Source: a virus
Lineage: Duplodnaviria; Heunggongvirae; Uroviricota; Caudoviricetes
Virus record (IMG/VR): IMGVR_UViG_2531839179_000028
Length of the DNA: 19,148 bases
Direction: 5' to 3' (one strand)
Shown: positions 2,910 through 8,852 of the stretch, piece after piece
Numbering within the stretch: position 1 is the stretch's first letter
Layout of the letters: every line of letters begins with the position of its first letter
The notes under the pieces: generated by a model
Databases searched by the model: none
The model's input: only the letters and a program-made list of their open reading frames with translations
Told to the model about the DNA's origin: nothing
Position numbers and translations under genes: made by a program

Positions 2910-3520
2910 TAATTTACCTCCTGCGGCGGCTCCGGTAGCGGTATCCAGTGGGTTACATTGCGGCTCTGCGTTTCGAAGAACTCCTCACCATTGCGGACAA
3001 CATCAAAAAACTCACCGTCTCGATATTGCGCATAAAGAACGAATGCGCCATCACATAAAATAATTACGTGCTGACCGTCCTCTGGCATTCGCTCACTACA
3101 GCTTATCCAACCATCCGGAGTTACAGGAGGGTTGCCCGACAGCTTGTTCAACTTGTAAGTCTGGCTTACAGGTTCGGCACCATGAAGCATGACGGCGCGG
3201 CAGGCGTTCCAGCCTTCATCAAAGCCGACTATGCCATTATTTAAAGACGGAAGAGCATCCGGCACCACCGACACTGGCTGAGCCATATATAGCGGCTGAA
3301 CATACCAGCCCTTTGATAACCAACTGTCAGCAATGTTTTTGCTCCTGGTTATTGCCGGAATACCTAAGCCATTGTCTGAATGAAGCCACGCCACCGGCTC
3401 TGCTTCCAGTGATGCCAGAGCAATTTCATAAGCACGGCGCTCAACATTGTCTCGCACGTCTAAGCTGCCGATTCGTTCTTTGATTTCTTTAATCAGTTCC
3501 TTATCGGTGAAAGTGGTCAT
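2909..3520 (-). CDS. Phage early protein with a C-terminal DUF551-like domain
   Basis: 203-aa ORF whose C-terminus (…GQHVIILCDG…VTHWIPLPEPP) matches the DUF551 signature common in early-left operons of enterobacterial prophages. It is translationally coupled to its neighbours on both sides. Confidence 0.6.
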   Translation of the reverse strand: MTTFTDKELIKEIKERIGSLDVRDNVERRAYEIALASLEAEPVAWLHSDNGLGIPAITRSKNIADSWLSKGWYVQPLYMAQPVSVVPDALPSLNNGIVGFDEGWNACRAVMLHGAEPVSQTYKLNKLSGNPPVTPDGWISCSERMPEDGQHVIILCDGAFVLYAQYRDGEFFDVVRNGEEFFETQSRNVTHWIPLPEPPQEVN

Positions 3521-4536: not shown

Positions 4537-5361
4537 TCAGGCGGTGAAAGTACCAATAAAGGTTTCTACTTTGCTGTCCTTGAATTTCTCAACAAGCAGA
4601 TCACGAAATTCGTTAGCCATTTCTTCCTGCACCGCCTCCAGCTGAATAATGCGCAGAACCAGTACAGGACGATCGCCAGTGATAATACTGAGGCGTAATT
4701 TAAACGGACGTTCTTTCAGACCTTCAAACGGAACGCATTTAAATTCAAATGCCACTGGCATAATGTCTTTGGTCTTCGCTTCGACAGACTCCATCAGGGA
4801 GCGTTTGCCGCTGAAGTCATTATCTTCAAAATCAGCGGTCTGGTTTGCTTCAATCGTGATTTTACGGACAGCCGCAGCCGCTTTTGTTGCCTGAATAGCG
4901 TCACCATTAGCATCAAAGCCCACAAGATAGTCTGCCCAGTCTTCAATCCATTCTGCTAGTGACTTCTGGGAGTTACGCTCGCCGTTAATAGACAACAGAG
5001 CAGAGAACGGTGCTGTCTTTTTCAGTTTGAGTGTGGCGGTGTTATCTGCGTGACCTGGTTCATCAATAGTACCCAGGTTAAGCACACTGACGGCTCGCAT
5101 ATTATCGGCATCGATAAAGCAGCGGGTGCCTTCATCTGCAAGATCTTTAGAATAACGGGTAAAGTCATCGATGCTGGCAGTGGAAAGCGCACCACGGAAA
5201 CGGAAGCGATTTAAATTAAATTTTTCCAGATCATGAATGCGGAAATTCTCAGGCAATGCCACAGCATCGGCACCAATCTTACTGATAATTTCATTAACAC
5301 CCTGAGCAGAAATAAGGGCATGGATTTGATTAATTGCGGTTGCGTCTAAGTTCTGAGACAT
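4537..5361 (-). CDS. DUF2303-family phage protein (YfdQ-like)
   Basis: 274-aa ORF, the same length as yfdQ and with N-terminal similarity to it as I recall ([21 protein letters not shown]…). The start is preceded by an RBS-like GGAG. Confidence 0.6.
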
Positions 5362-5426
5362 AATAAGTCCTCACTATATAAAGATATTCAGTGATGAGAT
5401 AAATAATCGGTTAATTAAGAACGATA

Positions 5427-5789
5427 TTAATGACCTGCTGCGCGGAGTTTTCCGTCAGGTTCACCGGCAAGAGTCAGTAATTGTCCCTGATCTTCCTGCA
5501 GAATAGTCAGGCGACCACCGCGATTGACATACATCGGCGTTTCGGTGGTGTCTTCTTCGGAAATTTTCCCGCGGTTAGTCGGGCGAACATATGAGAGTTT
5601 GTGTTTGATTTTCACACGGTTCTCATCAAATGGTTCGATTTCCAGGTTGAGTGAGACCTTACCTTTGGTTTTCGTGTTCATCACACCGGAAGCGACTTCA
5701 CTGAGAACTGCGCCGATTTTGGTTTCAAATACGCCGCCGTCCAGCTCCCCAATAAATGCCTGCACATCAGTACTGCGTTCGCTAGCCAT
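5427..5789 (-). CDS. Small hypothetical phage protein, first gene of the leftward early operon (YfdP-like)
   Basis: 120-aa product starting MASERSTDVQAF…. The ATG at 5787-5789 has AGGAG (complement of 5797-5801) 7 nt upstream. The longer 197-aa ORF version extends in frame into a GC-rich structured leader with implausible composition and no RBS. Confidence 0.55.
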   Translation of the reverse strand: MASERSTDVQAFIGELDGGVFETKIGAVLSEVASGVMNTKTKGKVSLNLEIEPFDENRVKIKHKLSYVRPTNRGKISEEDTTETPMYVNRGGRLTILQEDQGQLLTLAGEPDGKLRAAGH

Positions 5790-5837
5790 TTTTCTGCTCC
5801 TAATCATATCGACCCTGCAAGGTCGGTTGGTTTCTCC

Positions 5838-5972
5838 ACAAAACAGAGAAGAACACCTGCGGTGGCAGCCGCCCGGATGGATTGGGTTATGAGCCCGTCG
5901 TCCGGTGATGCTCTTCTCTGTTTTGTAAAAAGAGCGGTACCAGCCGGAAGCAAGTGTACAAACTGGTACCGC
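5838..5972 (-). other. Highly structured GC-rich leader: 15-bp perfect inverted repeat (5838-5852 / 5912-5926, 59-nt loop with a nested CCGGA/TCCGG stem) followed by a 10-bp perfect inverted repeat (5934-5943 / 5963-5972)
   Basis: The inverted repeats are read directly from the sequence. They lie in the ~600-nt untranslated stretch between the pL-like promoter (~6390-6418) and the first early-left gene, and I find no convincing ORF with an RBS there. Confidence 0.5.
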
Positions 5973-6384
5973 CAAAGCAGTGGCTGTTGTGGTGGGGTTG
6001 TCACTCAGGCGTATGGTCAACCTGACAATCCGGTGTCCTCAACGGGGAAAGAGTAACCCCGCCATACTTACCGCCGCGCCATTTCGCGGATTACCACAAC
6101 GCTGAGAGCACTTAGCCAGTTACGGCACCACACTTTGTCGCGGTTCCATAAATGCCCTCATCGTTGCACCCTGGTCTCTTCCCAGGCGTCAAACCGAATC
6201 GCCACGCTGGTTAGGCGTCTTATCAGCATCATCATTGACTTGCACATTCCGGCTACCTGGTTTGTTTGCTCGAGCAAGGAGTGGATTGTCCCCTTTAACG
6301 TCACCAGACCGCTAACGACGCATGTGCCATACGCCGTGTTACAACCAAATTTTGTTTTAATCTTGCCTGTGTTATGTTTCTTTT

Positions 6385-6418
6385 AGATACATTATGTATC
6401 TCATGGGTACATTGTCAA
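6385..6418 (-). promoter_or_regulatory. pL-like leftward early promoter with an overlapping 17-bp perfect palindromic operator (AGATACATTATGTATCT, 6385-6401)
   Basis: On the minus strand: -35 TTGACA (complement of 6413-6418), 17-nt spacer, -10 ATAATG (complement of 6390-6395). The perfect palindrome overlaps the -10 element. It lies immediately downstream of the cI terminator. Confidence 0.45.
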
Positions 6419-6422
6419 GCAT

Positions 6423-6443
6423 AAAAAAACCTGCCGAAGCAGG
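6423..6443 (-). terminator. Intrinsic terminator downstream of cI
   Basis: On the minus strand a CCTGC-TTCG-GCAGG hairpin (6430-6443) is followed by a 7-nt U-run (complement of 6423-6429), 15 nt after the cI stop. Confidence 0.6.
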
Positions 6444-6457
6444 TTCATAAATATTGA

Positions 6458-7132
6458 TTAGGCCTTTATTGTGTATCTTCTTGGTTTTCCCGAGAAAATC
6501 ACTGTACCAATTATAGAGCAATTACCGTTAATCTTAATGTAAGGCTCAGGCCAGTTTGGGTTTAATGCTTTGAGATAACGCTGTGTTCCATCTTCTATCA
6601 ACCGCTTGAAGGTGGTTTCGCCTGAATCGTGCATCAATGCAATAACGTCGTCACCGTGGCAGGCAGGGACTTCAGGATCTACAAAAATCATGTCTCCCGG
6701 GCGGTACTCATCAATCATTGAATCACCAATCACCCGCAAGATATAAGTCATTTCGCCACAGGGTACAGGGCAGGGATAAGTTTCTGCTGTGCTCAAATCA
6801 ACCTCAGAATAGCCAACTTCTTTCCATGCTCCGGCCTGTACCCATGATATGACAGGGACTAACGTTATTTGTTTGTTAGTAATTGAAACATCAGGTTTTT
6901 TTGTGATGTTTGTTGTCTGGTGTTCTTGATCAAGCCATCCGACAGGCAGGTCGAAACATTTTTCGATGTGCCGTGCCATGCTGTCACCGATATTTTTAGT
7001 AGCACCATCTCCCATAAACCTGCTGGTCTGGGTTGGCTCGCGATCAATCATGGTGGCAAAGGAAGAATTCCCGCCAACACCATCTCTCAGTTTTCTGGCG
7101 TTAGACCGCCGGATGTCATGGACTGTTTTCAT
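6458..7132 (-). CDS. cI: CI-like prophage repressor (N-terminal HTH, C-terminal S24 LexA-type autopeptidase)
   Basis: 224 aa. It has an Ala-Gly cleavage site (VQAGAW), the catalytic Ser in VIGDSM and Lys in TFKRL of S24 peptidases, and a basic N-terminal DNA-binding region. It is divergent from the cro-like gene across an operator-containing intergenic region. Confidence 0.85.
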   Translation of the reverse strand: MKTVHDIRRSNARKLRDGVGGNSSFATMIDREPTQTSRFMGDGATKNIGDSMARHIEKCFDLPVGWLDQEHQTTNITKKPDVSITNKQITLVPVISWVQAGAWKEVGYSEVDLSTAETYPCPVPCGEMTYILRVIGDSMIDEYRPGDMIFVDPEVPACHGDDVIALMHDSGETTFKRLIEDGTQRYLKALNPNWPEPYIKINGNCSIIGTVIFSGKPRRYTIKA

Positions 7133-7222: not shown

Positions 7223-7423
7223 ATGAAAGCGTATTGGGACTCTTTAACCAAAGAACAGCAGGGCGAGTTGGCCGGAAAAGTTGGCTCAACACCAGGCTAT
7301 TTACGGCTGGTTTTCAATGGTTATAAAAAAGCCAGTTTTGTGCTGGCTAAAAAACTTGAGCAATGCACGTCAGGTGCAATTACGAAATCTGACTTAAGAC
7401 CGGATATCTATCCGAAAGATTAA
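7223..7423 (+). CDS. Cro/YdaS-family HTH regulator
   Basis: 66 aa (MKAYWDSLTKEQQGELAGKVGSTPGYLRLV…ITKSDLRPDIYPKD). The HTH plus C-terminal DLRPD motif is typical of YdaS-like Cro proteins. GGAGG RBS sits 10 nt upstream. The long 167-aa ORF in the track is an antisense-to-cI extension. Confidence 0.7.
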   Translation: MKAYWDSLTKEQQGELAGKVGSTPGYLRLVFNGYKKASFVLAKKLEQCTSGAITKSDLRPDIYPKD

Positions 7424-7466: not shown

Positions 7467-8019
7467 GTGGGTAAGCATCACTGGAAAGTAGAAAAACAGC
7501 CTGAGTGGTACGTGAAAGCTGTCAGAAAAACTATCGCGGCGTTGCCGGGGGGGGTACGCTGAAGCTGCTGAGTGGCTAGATGTAACAGAGAACGCTTTAT
7601 TCAACCGCCTTCGTGCAGATGGCGATCAGATTTTCCCGCTGGGATGGGCAATGATTTTACAGCGCGCGGCTGGCACTCACTACATTGCGGATGCTGTCGC
7701 ACAGTCTGCTGGTGGGGTGTTTGTATCGCTTCCTGAAATTGAGGAAGTAGAGAACGCCGATATAAACCAGCGCCTGCTGGAAGTCATCGAACAGATCGGG
7801 AGTTACTCAAAGCAGATTCGTTCGGCAATCGAAGATGGGGTAGTGGAGCCACACGAGCAGACAGCAATTAATGATGAGTTGTATCTGTCAATTTCGAAGC
7901 TCCAGGAGCATGCAGCACTGGTCTACAAAATCTTTTGCGCTCCAGAAAAGAGTGACGCCCGCGAGTGTGCAGCTCCGGGCGTCGTGGCGTTTTGTGTCTG
8001 TGGAGAAACTAACGCATGA
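7467..8019 (+). pseudogene. CII/YdaT-like early regulator interrupted by a frameshift at a G8 homopolymer
   Basis: GTG 7467 (GAGG 6 nt upstream; ATG 7455 in frame) opens a frame that stops at 7560-7562 just after G8 (7547-7554). A second frame is open from 7516 to 8019 with coding-like sequence (…AEAAEWLDVTENALFNRLRADGDQIFPLGW…) and no start codon before ATG 7651. Removing one G joins the two frames into one ~183-aa product. Confidence 0.5.
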
Positions 8020-8852
8020 ACAGTTTAACGGCAAATAACCGTTTGTCGCAACAGCTGGTGGTCAGCGTCGCTGAACACCTGTTGTTACGGCATGAATGCA
8101 GATTACCAAATCTCCTGGCTGTAAGTAACCACAGAGAACTTTACCTGACTGTGGGGGGCGAGTTGTGCAGGAACTTAACCGCTGGTTTCGTGACGGAAGA
8201 GGACTTTATGTTCATGTTATTCGTTGGGAGCCAGAAACACAGCGCGTTATCTATCTTCGCAAAGACTACCCGCATGAGTGCTTTAGTCCTTTGTGGAAAT
8301 TCAAGCGTGATTTTGTTGAGTGTGAAGGACCACCAGCACATTGATTCTGCCATTCCGGGACGTTACACTGTTCAGGCACCTTATAAAGCGGGTGCCGGGA
8401 TTGGCGTCCTGGAATTGATCAAGGCGATATATGACGCGCCAGCGTCTTTTTTATCGTCCGCATTTGCTCACATCAAAGTTATGGTGGGCTGGGCGGGGGC
8501 ATCGAAAGATGCGCCGGTTTCCTTGATCACCGGTTACGCCAACCCCGTTCAGTTCACCACCAGCGAAATTGGCGTTTCCGGTGGTGGAAGTATTTCACCG
8601 ATCAAGGAGGCTGCCATCATGGCTACTGTCCCAGCCCTCACTCGTCTGAATGATGAAGACTTACATAAACTCAGTTATGTAACAACTGCACTACGTGCTC
8701 TGCGCAAGGTAACTCTTTCGGATCCGCAGGCACATCAGGTTCTGGTAGAAACCCTTCTTAACTTGCAAGCTGAACGTATTCGTCTGGCGGATAAGGCTAA
8801 TTTTCATATTCACCGTCTCCTGAATATCAGCGGAGGGCATCGTCATGCTTAA
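8016..8852 (+). CDS. Hypothetical early-right operon protein
   Basis: 278-aa ORF. Its ATG overlaps the upstream stop (ATGA at 8016-8019), implying translational coupling. I recognise no domain. Confidence 0.45.
   Translation: MNSLTANNRLSQQLVVSVAEHLLLRHECRLPNLLAVSNHRELYLTVGGELCRNLTAGFVTEEDFMFMLFVGSQKHSALSIFAKTTRMSALVLCGNSSVILLSVKDHQHIDSAIPGRYTVQAPYKAGAGIGVLELIKAIYDAPASFLSSAFAHIKVMVGWAGASKDAPVSLITGYANPVQFTTSEIGVSGGGSISPIKEAAIMATVPALTRLNDEDLHKLSYVTTALRALRKVTLSDPQAHQVLVETLLNLQAERIRLADKANFHIHRLLNISGGHRHA

What the first reader, a model, noticed from the sequence alone, without database searches (positions are those of the whole stretch)
5790..6420. A ~600-nt ORF-less, highly structured GC-rich leader between the pL-like promoter and the early-left genes: candidate RNA element replacing an N-like function
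Where lambdoid phages usually encode N and nutL, this region has no convincing RBS-preceded ORF and no arginine-rich N-like protein. It instead carries a 15-bp perfect inverted repeat with a nested stem in its 59-nt loop (5838-5926) and a 10-bp perfect inverted repeat (5934-5972), directly upstream of the first early-left gene. This suggests a structured RNA (an HK022 put-like antitermination element, an attenuator or riboregulator, or a processed sRNA) or a protein-binding site controlling the operon.
Basis: partly seen in the sequence, partly recalled or inferred. Interest (0 to 1): 0.6.

Follow-up and report, generated by a model that had tools for sequence, protein, structure and literature searches.

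The report
Modular structured RNA leader of prophage pL
The gene-free stretch after this prophage's early-left promoter is a chain of conserved RNA structures: a relative of the small RNA DicF that doubles as a terminator, a long hairpin likely cut by RNase III, and an apparently undescribed pseudoknotted RNA found in about 29% of complete E. coli genomes and in phage P1.

Summary
Window 5790-6420 is the roughly 590-nt untranslated leader of a pL-like operon on the minus strand. It has no conserved reading frame and folds far better than shuffled sequence.

- **10-bp repeat plus U-tract (5976-5925):** a diverged DicF-type terminator hairpin. It sits exactly where DicF sits in Qin-type phages.
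- **15/25-bp repeat (5926-5838):** a covarying 20-bp stem with an invariant three-way apex. It lies directly after the terminator and before the yfdP-like gene. A long stem also follows DicF, whose longer form ends at a reported RNase III cut.

At 6341-6163 lies a 179-nt RNA (element C) with four covarying helices and a covarying pseudoknot. It has no Rfam 15 match and no annotation. It occurs in 1561 of 5426 complete E. coli genomes. It is always sense to early transcripts, in lambdoid pL leaders, epsilon15-like phages and the P1 ban operon.

Element C is not a put homologue, and its function is unproven. My best guess is a portable cis-acting element that helps transcription pass downstream terminators. 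A released, stand-alone RNA is nearly as likely.

Interest is moderate to high.

The parts
6391..6418 (-). pL-like sigma-70 promoter (TTGACA, 16 nt, CATAAT). The transcription start is inferred near 6384. Operator-like palindromes overlap it at 6374-6412.
   Evidence: I3. The same promoter is annotated in phage Ayreon.
6163..6341 (-). Element C: a conserved pseudoknotted RNA core. It has hairpin P1 with an invariant loop UAUGGCACAUG, helix P2, a variable hairpin P3, hairpin P4 whose loop (A/C)ACC pairs with a downstream GGU(U/G), and hairpin P5 with loop GAAGAGA. It contains the invariant 19-mer GGUAGCCGGAAUGUGCAAG.
   Evidence: Alignment A2. Covariation: 96.9% of cells paired against 28-44% when partners are slid, 12 pairs changed on both sides, 0 of 500 shuffles as good. 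Covariance model R1 scores 156.6 bits here. No Rfam hit.
6098..6162 (-). 3' extension of element C. A long-range helix GAGGGCAUU/AGUGCUCUC encloses a variable domain (read by eye) and ends in CAGCGUU. In phiV10, SPN1S and a Klebsiella phage this junction is followed directly by tRNA-Arg(UCU). Here only the first bases, GUGGU, remain.
   Evidence: Alignment A1, sequences, tRNA positions.
5977..6097 (-). Module B: the structured domain that directly precedes DicF in Qin-type phages. A roughly 75% identical copy sits just downstream of Pban in P1. It contains the hairpin CCGCG-AAAUGG-CGCGG and a long-range pairing GUAUGG/CCAUAC, which is GCAUGG/CCAUGC in P1.
   Evidence: alignment A4.
5925..5976 (-). 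DicF-like terminator hairpin: UUUGGCGGUACCAG, a 19-nt loop, CUGGUACCGC, then UCUUUUUAC.
   Evidence: It occupies the DicF position after module B. 54 of 56 distinct relatives have a stable hairpin plus U-tract here, with several different stem sequences.
5838..5926 (-). Long hairpin: a 20-bp stem (5926-5907 with 5857-5838) closing a three-way junction. The apex is invariant: CACCGGRCGACGGGCUCAUWACCCAAUCCAYCCGG. It is a likely RNase III substrate.
   Evidence: Alignment A5. 94.1% paired against 37-51% when slid, and 7 pairs changed on both sides, for example GC in 12 and CG in 10 sequences.
5808..5827 (-). Small GC hairpin between the long hairpin and the ribosome-binding site. Relatives have different sequences that still form a hairpin (GGCGGUGGCAGCCGCC).
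5427..5803 (-). Ribosome-binding site (AGGAG) and the first early-left gene, yfdP-like (phrog_204, 120 aa). It is followed by a yfdQ-like DUF2303 gene at 4537-5361.

Best explanation
Region 5790-6420 is the untranslated 5' leader of the repressor-controlled early-left (pL) operon of an SfV/cdtI/mEp460-type lambdoid prophage. It is a string of independently conserved RNA modules, not a degenerate gene. Transcription starts near 6384 and runs leftward.

1. **Element C (6341-6163).** It folds as it emerges into a pseudoknotted structure. I think it most likely acts in cis as a portable element that makes the elongating complex or the long untranslated transcript resistant to termination. That would be put- or EAR-like in function, not in ancestry. 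This step is inferred.

2. **The dicF-type locus (6097-5925).** Module B is followed by a DicF-like hairpin with a U-tract. This is an intrinsic terminator that stops part of the transcripts. It can yield a small terminator-derived RNA, as DicF is produced. The identity is shown by synteny and alignment; the processing is inferred.

3. **The 20-bp stem (5926-5838).** Read-through transcripts carry this stem immediately after the terminator. I infer that RNase III cuts it, separating the non-coding part from the yfdP message and setting its stability or translation. The basis is that a comparable long stem follows DicF in a Qin-type phage, and the longer 72-nt form of DicF is reported to end at an RNase III cut.

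The confidence of 0.6 is for the modular anatomy and for the identity of the two repeats. The cis-acting role of element C alone is about 0.35.
For: **Structure and absence of coding.**

**Element C.**
- Four covarying helices plus a covarying pseudoknot pair.
- One copy in the window.
- Of 152 loci carrying its invariant 19-mer, 79 lie downstream of a cI-like gene on the same strand (three repressor types), 46 lie between portal and terminase genes of epsilon15-like phages, and 22 lie upstream of P1 ban.
- In a Kosakonia prophage it starts at about +1 to +3 of a TTGACA-16-TAAACT promoter.
- A strong terminator-like hairpin follows within 1 kb on the sense strand in 86 of 116 distinct contexts, against 15 of 116 on the antisense strand.

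**DicF-type locus.**
- In phage vB_EcoS-640R1 module B is followed directly by an Rfam DicF hit of 76.7 bits.
- The window aligns to it, keeping UUUGGCGGUAYCAGUUU and CCGCYCUUUUUA.
- The hairpin plus U-tract is kept in 54 of 56 distinct relatives, with different stems.

**Long stem.**
- It covaries.
- Qin-type dicF is also followed by a roughly 18-bp long-range stem.
- PMC5069750 states that the 53-nt DicF ends at a Rho-independent terminator and the 72-nt form at an RNase III cut.
Against: - No transcript data were available, so the start site, termination, processing and any small RNA are all inferred.
- Element C is dispensable for the terminator-hairpin-yfdP cassette. SfV has the same pL, terminator and gene but no element C. 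In a biased sample, 68 of 121 distinct cassettes lack it.
- In P1, element C sits directly before ban, with no strong terminator nearby.
- The order of the modules is shuffled among relatives. That fits autonomous RNAs as well as it fits a cis-acting device.
- The Rfam DicF model does not score the window hairpin even at E <= 10.
- The DicF 5' segment is missing and the 3' region differs. These are the parts that pair with xylR (5' end) and with ftsZ and pykA (3' region).
Confidence: 0.6

Rival explanations
1. Element C is an autonomous non-coding RNA carried as cargo. It is cut out of early transcripts, with ends set by neighbouring tRNA processing or RNase E, and acts in trans. It might bind a host protein or enzyme, or act as a decoy against a host defence. 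It would have no role in transcription of the pL operon.
For: It is optional in the cassette and its position relative to other modules is shuffled. Its boundaries coincide with tRNA ends: it begins 1-2 nt after tRNA-Ile in P1 and ends at the 5' end of tRNA-Arg in phiV10, SPN1S and a Klebsiella phage. Invariant loops and junctions with variable stems are typical of RNAs that bind a specific partner. In a Klebsiella phage, element C, the tRNA and a DicF-like terminator form what looks like a self-contained non-coding unit.
Against: No partner is known. It is always in sense orientation in early, repressor-controlled transcripts and usually near their 5' end. That placement would not be required for a trans-acting RNA. 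Many loci have no tRNA nearby.
Confidence: 0.3
2. Element C is a ligand- or tRNA-sensing riboswitch-like element, or a self-cleaving ribozyme, that gates or processes early phage transcripts.
For: Its size and architecture resemble large aptamers and ribozymes: about 170 nt, two pseudoknot-type contacts and about 60 invariant positions outside the stems. It lies in a 5' leader upstream of a terminator. The P5 loop always contains AGA, the codon read by the adjacent tRNA-Arg(UCU); this is seen by eye.
Against: There is no helix joining element C to a conserved expression platform, and the downstream sequence differs completely among contexts. No Rfam riboswitch or ribozyme model matches. T-box-type sensors are not known in Enterobacteria (my own knowledge).
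Confidence: 0.12
3. The leader encodes a small protein, for example an N-like antiterminator with a non-canonical start, and the conservation reflects coding.
For: Annotators have called ORFs here. Two leader ORFs hit PHROG families of unknown function: phrog_3651 at E 5e-38 and phrog_33599.
Against: No frame is conserved, and indels are not multiples of three. Substitutions are compensatory in helices. There is no Pfam hit and no arginine-rich product. The PHROG families probably derive from ORFs miscalled over conserved non-coding DNA.
Confidence: 0.03
4. The inverted repeats are DNA-level sites, such as protein-binding palindromes or recombination boundaries, rather than RNA structures.
For: The region is a mosaic with sharp module boundaries and a recurring junction motif AGCGUUGUGGU. 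Operator-like palindromes do exist at the promoter.
Against: Many conserved pairs are G-U, which would be C-A on the other strand or in duplex DNA. Examples are 16 GU at one pair of helix P1 in element C and 19 UG at one pair of the long stem. The U-tract follows the hairpin only on the minus strand.
Confidence: 0.05

Closest known systems
DicF sRNA of Qin-type prophages (Rfam RF00039) and the dicBF operon
   Same: It lies in the same place, directly 3' of the conserved upstream domain (module B) inside a repressor-controlled early operon. The 5' arm (UUUGGCGGUAYCAGUUU) and the 3' arm with U-tract (CCGCYCUUUUUA) are shared. It is a Rho-independent terminator hairpin followed by a long stem and then the next gene (PMC5069750).
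   Different: The first roughly 19-20 nt of DicF are absent, and the loop and 3' half are different. These are the parts that pair with xylR, ftsZ and pykA. The Rfam model does not score it. The next gene is yfdP-like, not dicB.
HK022 putL/putR and the HK639 putL-like RNA (protein-independent processive antitermination)
   Same: Element C is a structured RNA transcribed just after an early promoter in a lambdoid phage with no N-like gene in the leader. Terminators lie downstream.
   Different: There is no sequence or structural homology. put is about 70 nt with two stem-loops, whereas element C is about 180 nt with five helices and pseudoknots. The element C model finds nothing in HK022 or HK639. 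There is a single copy and none in the pR operon. Antitermination activity is untested.
RNase III-sensitive hairpin in the lambda N leader, and the RNase III site that makes 72-nt DicF
   Same: It is a long, nearly perfect stem of about 20 bp between upstream leader elements and the ribosome-binding site of the first early-left gene. The lambda comparison rests on my own knowledge; the DicF comparison on PMC5069750.
   Different: The sequence is unrelated. The apex is an invariant three-way junction, which suggests an additional specific partner. Cleavage is untested.
EAR (eps-associated RNA) of Bacillus
   Same: EAR is a pseudoknotted cis-acting RNA that can sit inside an operon and promotes read-through of distant terminators (my own knowledge). 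Element C sits similarly within the P1 ban operon.
   Different: It comes from a different phylum, no Rfam match was found, and the function of element C is untested.
GOLLD and ROOL large ornate RNAs
   Same: Both are phage- or prophage-borne structured RNAs often next to tRNA genes, with unknown function (my own knowledge; PMC12286853 is listed).
   Different: Element C is much smaller, enterobacterial, and has no Rfam match.

Membership tests
HK022-type put RNA | Homology to putL/putR: about 70 nt, two stem-loops, conserved residues | tested here: not met
   The putL sequences of HK022 and HK639 were read. Only a 9-nt coincidence (CAUGCGUCG) is shared, and it is not conserved within the element C family. 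The element C model gives no hit in HK022 or HK639.
HK022-type put RNA | Located in the nascent early transcript, upstream of terminators | tested here: met
   Element C lies about 45 nt after the inferred pL start. A strong sense-strand terminator lies downstream in 86 of 116 contexts.
HK022-type put RNA | Promotes terminator read-through in cis without a phage protein, and depends on the RNA polymerase beta-prime zinc-binding domain | not testable with these tools
   This needs reporter or in vitro transcription assays and rpoC mutants.
DicF (RF00039) | Scores above the Rfam gathering threshold | tested here: not met
   No DicF match appears in 5300-6600 even at E <= 10. The same model gives 76.7 bits in phage vB_EcoS-640R1.
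DicF (RF00039) | Position in an early prophage operon, directly after the conserved upstream domain | tested here: met
   Module B is followed by DicF in locus L162 and by the window hairpin at the same offset.
DicF (RF00039) | 3' Rho-independent terminator hairpin with a U-tract | tested here: met
   (dG about -22 kcal/mol, followed by UUUUU).
DicF (RF00039) | 5' and 3' seed sequences that pair with xylR, ftsZ and pykA | tested here: not met
   Alignment A4 shows that the 5' 19-20 nt are missing and the loop and 3' half are different. Seed regions are as described in PMC5069750.
DicF (RF00039) | Hfq binding and RNase E processing | not testable with these tools
   Experimental.
RNase III-processed leader hairpin | Long (about 20 bp or more), nearly perfect double-stranded stem in the transcript | tested here: met
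   A 20-bp stem, 94% paired across 22 relatives, with compensatory changes.
RNase III-processed leader hairpin | Cleavage by RNase III | not testable with these tools
   Needs a comparison of rnc mutant and wild type.
N-like antiterminator gene | Conserved ORF with an arginine-rich motif between pL and the early-left genes | tested here: not met
Any Rfam 15 family (for element C) | Covariance-model match | tested here: not met
   No match in the leader at the gathering thresholds over the whole window. Over 5300-6600 at E <= 10 there is nothing on element C, only chance-level hits elsewhere in the stretch. ARAGORN finds no tRNA or tmRNA.

The most novel reading that the evidence does not exclude
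Element C (6163-6341) is a previously undescribed class of pseudoknotted phage RNA with an autonomous activity. It might be a protein-independent modifier of RNA polymerase unrelated to put, or else a ribozyme or sensor. It is carried in the early transcripts of three unrelated phage lineages, including phage P1, and in about 29% of complete E. coli genomes.
Probability: 0.5. Interest if true: 0.8.

Novelty: new variant of a known kind. Interest (0 to 1): 0.62.

Why it matters
- **N-less lambdoid phages.** Phages of the SfV, cdtI, mEp460 and Stx2c type have long gene-free pL leaders that nobody has explained. This analysis shows that they are built from reusable RNA modules.
- **DicF family.** The family of DicF-like terminator RNAs appears much larger and more varied than the Rfam model captures. 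That implies many prophage small RNAs with unknown targets, including in Shiga-toxin phages.
- **Element C.** It is a strongly constrained RNA present in P1 and in a large share of E. coli genomes, yet unannotated. If it modifies transcription it would be a second, structurally unrelated example of RNA-only antitermination in phages. If not, it is a new functional RNA in the best-studied bacterial system. Either way it is easy to test genetically.

Tried and rejected
- **Rfam.** Gathering thresholds on the whole window gave only C4 and isrK, at 8376-8564. Permissive thresholds on 5300-6600 gave only chance-level hits.
- **tRNA and tmRNA.** ARAGORN found none in the window.
- **put homology.** Rejected.
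- **Second copy of element C.** No divergent copy in the pR operon, as putR would be.
- **Coding hypotheses.** Rejected. SfV orf33, which replaces element C in SfV, is not arginine-rich.
- **Literature.** Full-text searches for the invariant 16-mer found no paper. King et al. 2011 and the P1 genome paper were not held. A 2023 catalogue of about 10,000 viral RNA candidates could not be checked because no supplement is held.
- **Terminator count.** A lenient count downstream of element C did not discriminate (110 sense against 100 antisense). A stricter threshold did (86 against 15).
- **Resemblances considered by eye and dropped because they are not conserved across the family:** a sigma-54 promoter (TGGCAC), SRP RNA domain IV (ACCAGGU..CCGGAA), a boxA-like GCUCUUU in the terminator tail, and enrichment of CsrA-type GGA motifs.

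Full report
**Setting**

The window is an E. coli lambdoid prophage of the SfV/cdtI/Ayreon/mEp460 type. It is 99% identical to Stx2c-converting phages over 5700-6500.

- A cI-like repressor (Peptidase_S24) lies at 6458-7132 on the minus strand.
- A cro-like ORF at 7224-7423 aligns with SfV's annotated cro, and a cII-like gene lies at 7651-8019.
- The first early-left genes are yfdP-like (5427-5789, phrog_204) and yfdQ-like (4537-5361, DUF2303).
- Just after the cI terminator (6446-6427) there is a near-consensus leftward promoter at 6418-6391. The annotators of Ayreon marked the same site.
- The finding therefore covers the roughly 590-nt leader of the pL operon, read on the minus strand.

- The region is richer in G+C than its flanks.
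- It folds far better than shuffled sequence: z = -5.0 overall and -7.4 for the promoter-distal third.
- No protein is encoded. The small ORFs have no Pfam match and only 'unknown' PHROG matches.
- Across relatives no frame is conserved, and indels are not multiples of three.

**The leader is a mosaic**

A sensitive DNA search showed that different segments have different relatives.

| Segment (window) | Relatives |
|---|---|
| 5790-5975 | SfV and SfII; part of it in Salmonella ST64B |
| 5978-6100 | PPompW-type phages, and a weaker copy in P1 |
| 6094-6337 | phiV10 and other epsilon15-like phages at about 83%; its core in P1, P7, D6 and SJ46 at about 79% |

I analysed each module separately.

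**The 10-bp repeat is a DicF-type terminator**

- On the minus strand the repeat is followed by UCUUUUUAC.
- In phage vB_EcoS-640R1, the homologue of 5978-6100 (module B) is followed directly by a bona fide DicF, scoring 76.7 bits in Rfam.
- The window aligns through this point. It keeps the 5' arm UUUGGCGGUAYCAGUUU and the 3' arm with U-tract.
- It lacks the first roughly 19-20 nt of DicF and has a different loop.
- The Rfam model does not score it, so it is a diverged relative rather than a member by that test.
- In more than 100 related contigs, a hairpin plus U-tract is kept at this spot in 54 of 56 distinct sequences. The stems fall into many different sequence types, which marks a selected terminator.
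- DicF itself ends at a Rho-independent terminator, is cut at its 5' end by RNase E, and has a longer 72-nt form made by RNase III (PMC5069750).

**The 15-bp repeat is the core of a 20-bp covarying stem**

- Across 22 relatives the stem is 94% paired, against 37-51% when partners are slid. Seven pairs change on both sides.
- It closes a three-way junction whose apex, CACCGGRCGACGGGCUCAUWACCCAAUCCAYCCGG, is invariant.
- It starts at the terminator's U-tract. It is followed by a small hairpin and then the ribosome-binding site of the yfdP-like gene.
- Qin-type dicF is likewise followed by a long-range stem of about 18 bp, and the 72-nt form of DicF is reported to end at an RNase III cut. By analogy, and by analogy with the lambda N leader (my own knowledge), I infer RNase III processing. 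This is not shown.

- Aligning the window with phiV10 and P1 revealed blocks of identity separated by stems with compensatory changes.
- Seeds from the invariant 19-mer GGUAGCCGGAAUGUGCAAG retrieved more than 120 viral contigs and prophages in 23 enterobacterial genomes, among them Kosakonia, Citrobacter, Klebsiella, Phytobacter, Buttiauxella and Erwinia. One further hit was a chance match.
- On 30 sequences that are less than 93% identical to one another, the proposed structure is 96.9% paired, against 28-44% when slid.
- Twelve pairs change on both sides, and no shuffle out of 500 does as well.
- The structure has four helices and a pseudoknot in which the P4 loop pairs downstream. That pairing itself covaries: CG in 25 sequences and AU in 5.
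- A second possible pseudoknot, between the P1 loop GCACAU and AUGUGC, is invariant. It can therefore be neither supported nor refuted.
- Nothing in Rfam 15 matches.
- PGAP leaves it unannotated in all listed genomes, although 1561 of 5426 complete E. coli genomes carry it.
- Two literature searches for its sequence found nothing.

**Contexts of element C**

Of 152 loci:
- 79 lie downstream of a cI-like gene on the same strand, with three different repressor types.
- 46 lie in a small leftward unit between the portal and terminase genes of epsilon15-like phages.
- 22 lie in the P1 ban operon, between tRNA-Ile and ban.

Further details:
- In epsilon15-like phages the element and its 3' extension run straight into tRNA-Arg(UCU). 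The window retains the junction and the first bases of that tRNA.
- In a Kosakonia prophage the element begins at about +1 of the promoter.
- A strong terminator-like hairpin follows on the sense strand within 1 kb in 86 of 116 distinct contexts, against 15 on the antisense strand.
- In the epsilon15-like phages the terminator after the tRNA is again of the UUUGGCGG...CCGCCCUUUUU type.

**What element C does is not settled**

It is not a put homologue.

Three points favour a cis-acting, put/EAR-like role:
- its constant sense orientation in early transcripts;
- its position near the promoter;
- its portability regardless of what lies downstream, together with the terminators that follow it.

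Three points argue against:
- It is optional. SfV has the same pL, terminator and yfdP but no element C, and 68 of 121 cassettes lack it (a biased sample).
- P1 has no strong terminator after it.
- Related leaders shuffle the order of several such modules, and the boundaries coincide with tRNA ends. That fits a set of RNAs released by processing.

I rank the cis-acting role slightly ahead (about 0.35) of a released trans-acting RNA (about 0.30). Sensor or ribozyme readings come behind those.

**Verdict**

- Its general reading, a structured regulatory leader RNA rather than a gene, is right.
- Its specific emphasis is off. The two repeats are a DicF-type terminator and a processing-type stem, both variants of known kinds.
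- The part that could carry an N-replacing function, and the part that appears new, is element C.

Noticed in passing
window 8376-8564 (+): Rfam finds isrK (8376-8452, 64 bits) and C4 antisense RNA (8477-8564, 82 bits). This is a P1/P7-type immI-like region inside the early-right operon. SfV has the same pair.
   Followed up: partly
window 6290-6321; locus L244 401-432 (E. coli 2012C-4502, NZ_CP027440.1): A type I-E CRISPR array carries a 32-nt spacer identical to the element C region (ACCCCTTTAACGTCACCAGACCGCTAACGACG). E. coli has therefore acquired immunity against this conserved non-coding segment.
   Followed up: yes
window 6090-6104; also L134, L149, L152 and SfV L002 about 2905-2925: The junction motif AGCGUUGUGGU(G)AAU recurs at module boundaries in many related leaders. 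In phiV10 and SPN1S it equals the junction plus the first bases of tRNA-Arg. It may be a retained RNase P or RNase E processing site, or a recombination boundary.
   Followed up: partly
L134, L137, L146, L152; SfV L002 about 2975-3010: Other conserved non-coding modules are shuffled within pL leaders of related prophages. One contains AAAGCGCAC...GUGCGCUUYCAG (a long-range helix). Another reads CCACCGAGCCUGAUGUGGUGAAAAG. Neither was analysed for covariation.
   Followed up: no
L128 (SPN1S), L139, L144, L150, L153, upstream of element C: A palindrome ATTACCTTTTAGGTAAT overlaps the putative promoter of the element C unit in epsilon15-like phages. It looks like an operator, which suggests the unit is repressor-controlled there too.
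   Followed up: no
window 5862-6056 (+) and 5804-6004 (-): PHROG families phrog_3651 and phrog_33599 (unknown function) match ORFs lying over the DicF-like locus and the hairpin. These families are probably built from ORFs miscalled on conserved non-coding RNA.
   Followed up: partly
L129 635-1156 (Klebsiella phage ST512-KPC3phi13.3): There the gene downstream of the unit made of element C, tRNA-Arg and the terminator is annotated as DUF2829. From my own knowledge that is the family of the Thoeris anti-defence protein Tad2, hinting that these units sit in accessory or anti-defence loci.
   Followed up: no
L005 5363-5456 (P1, just downstream of Pban): P1 carries a copy of module B, about 75% identical, overlapping its annotated 'dicF-like region'. 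The P1 ban operon and this pL leader therefore share two non-coding modules, B and element C.
   Followed up: partly
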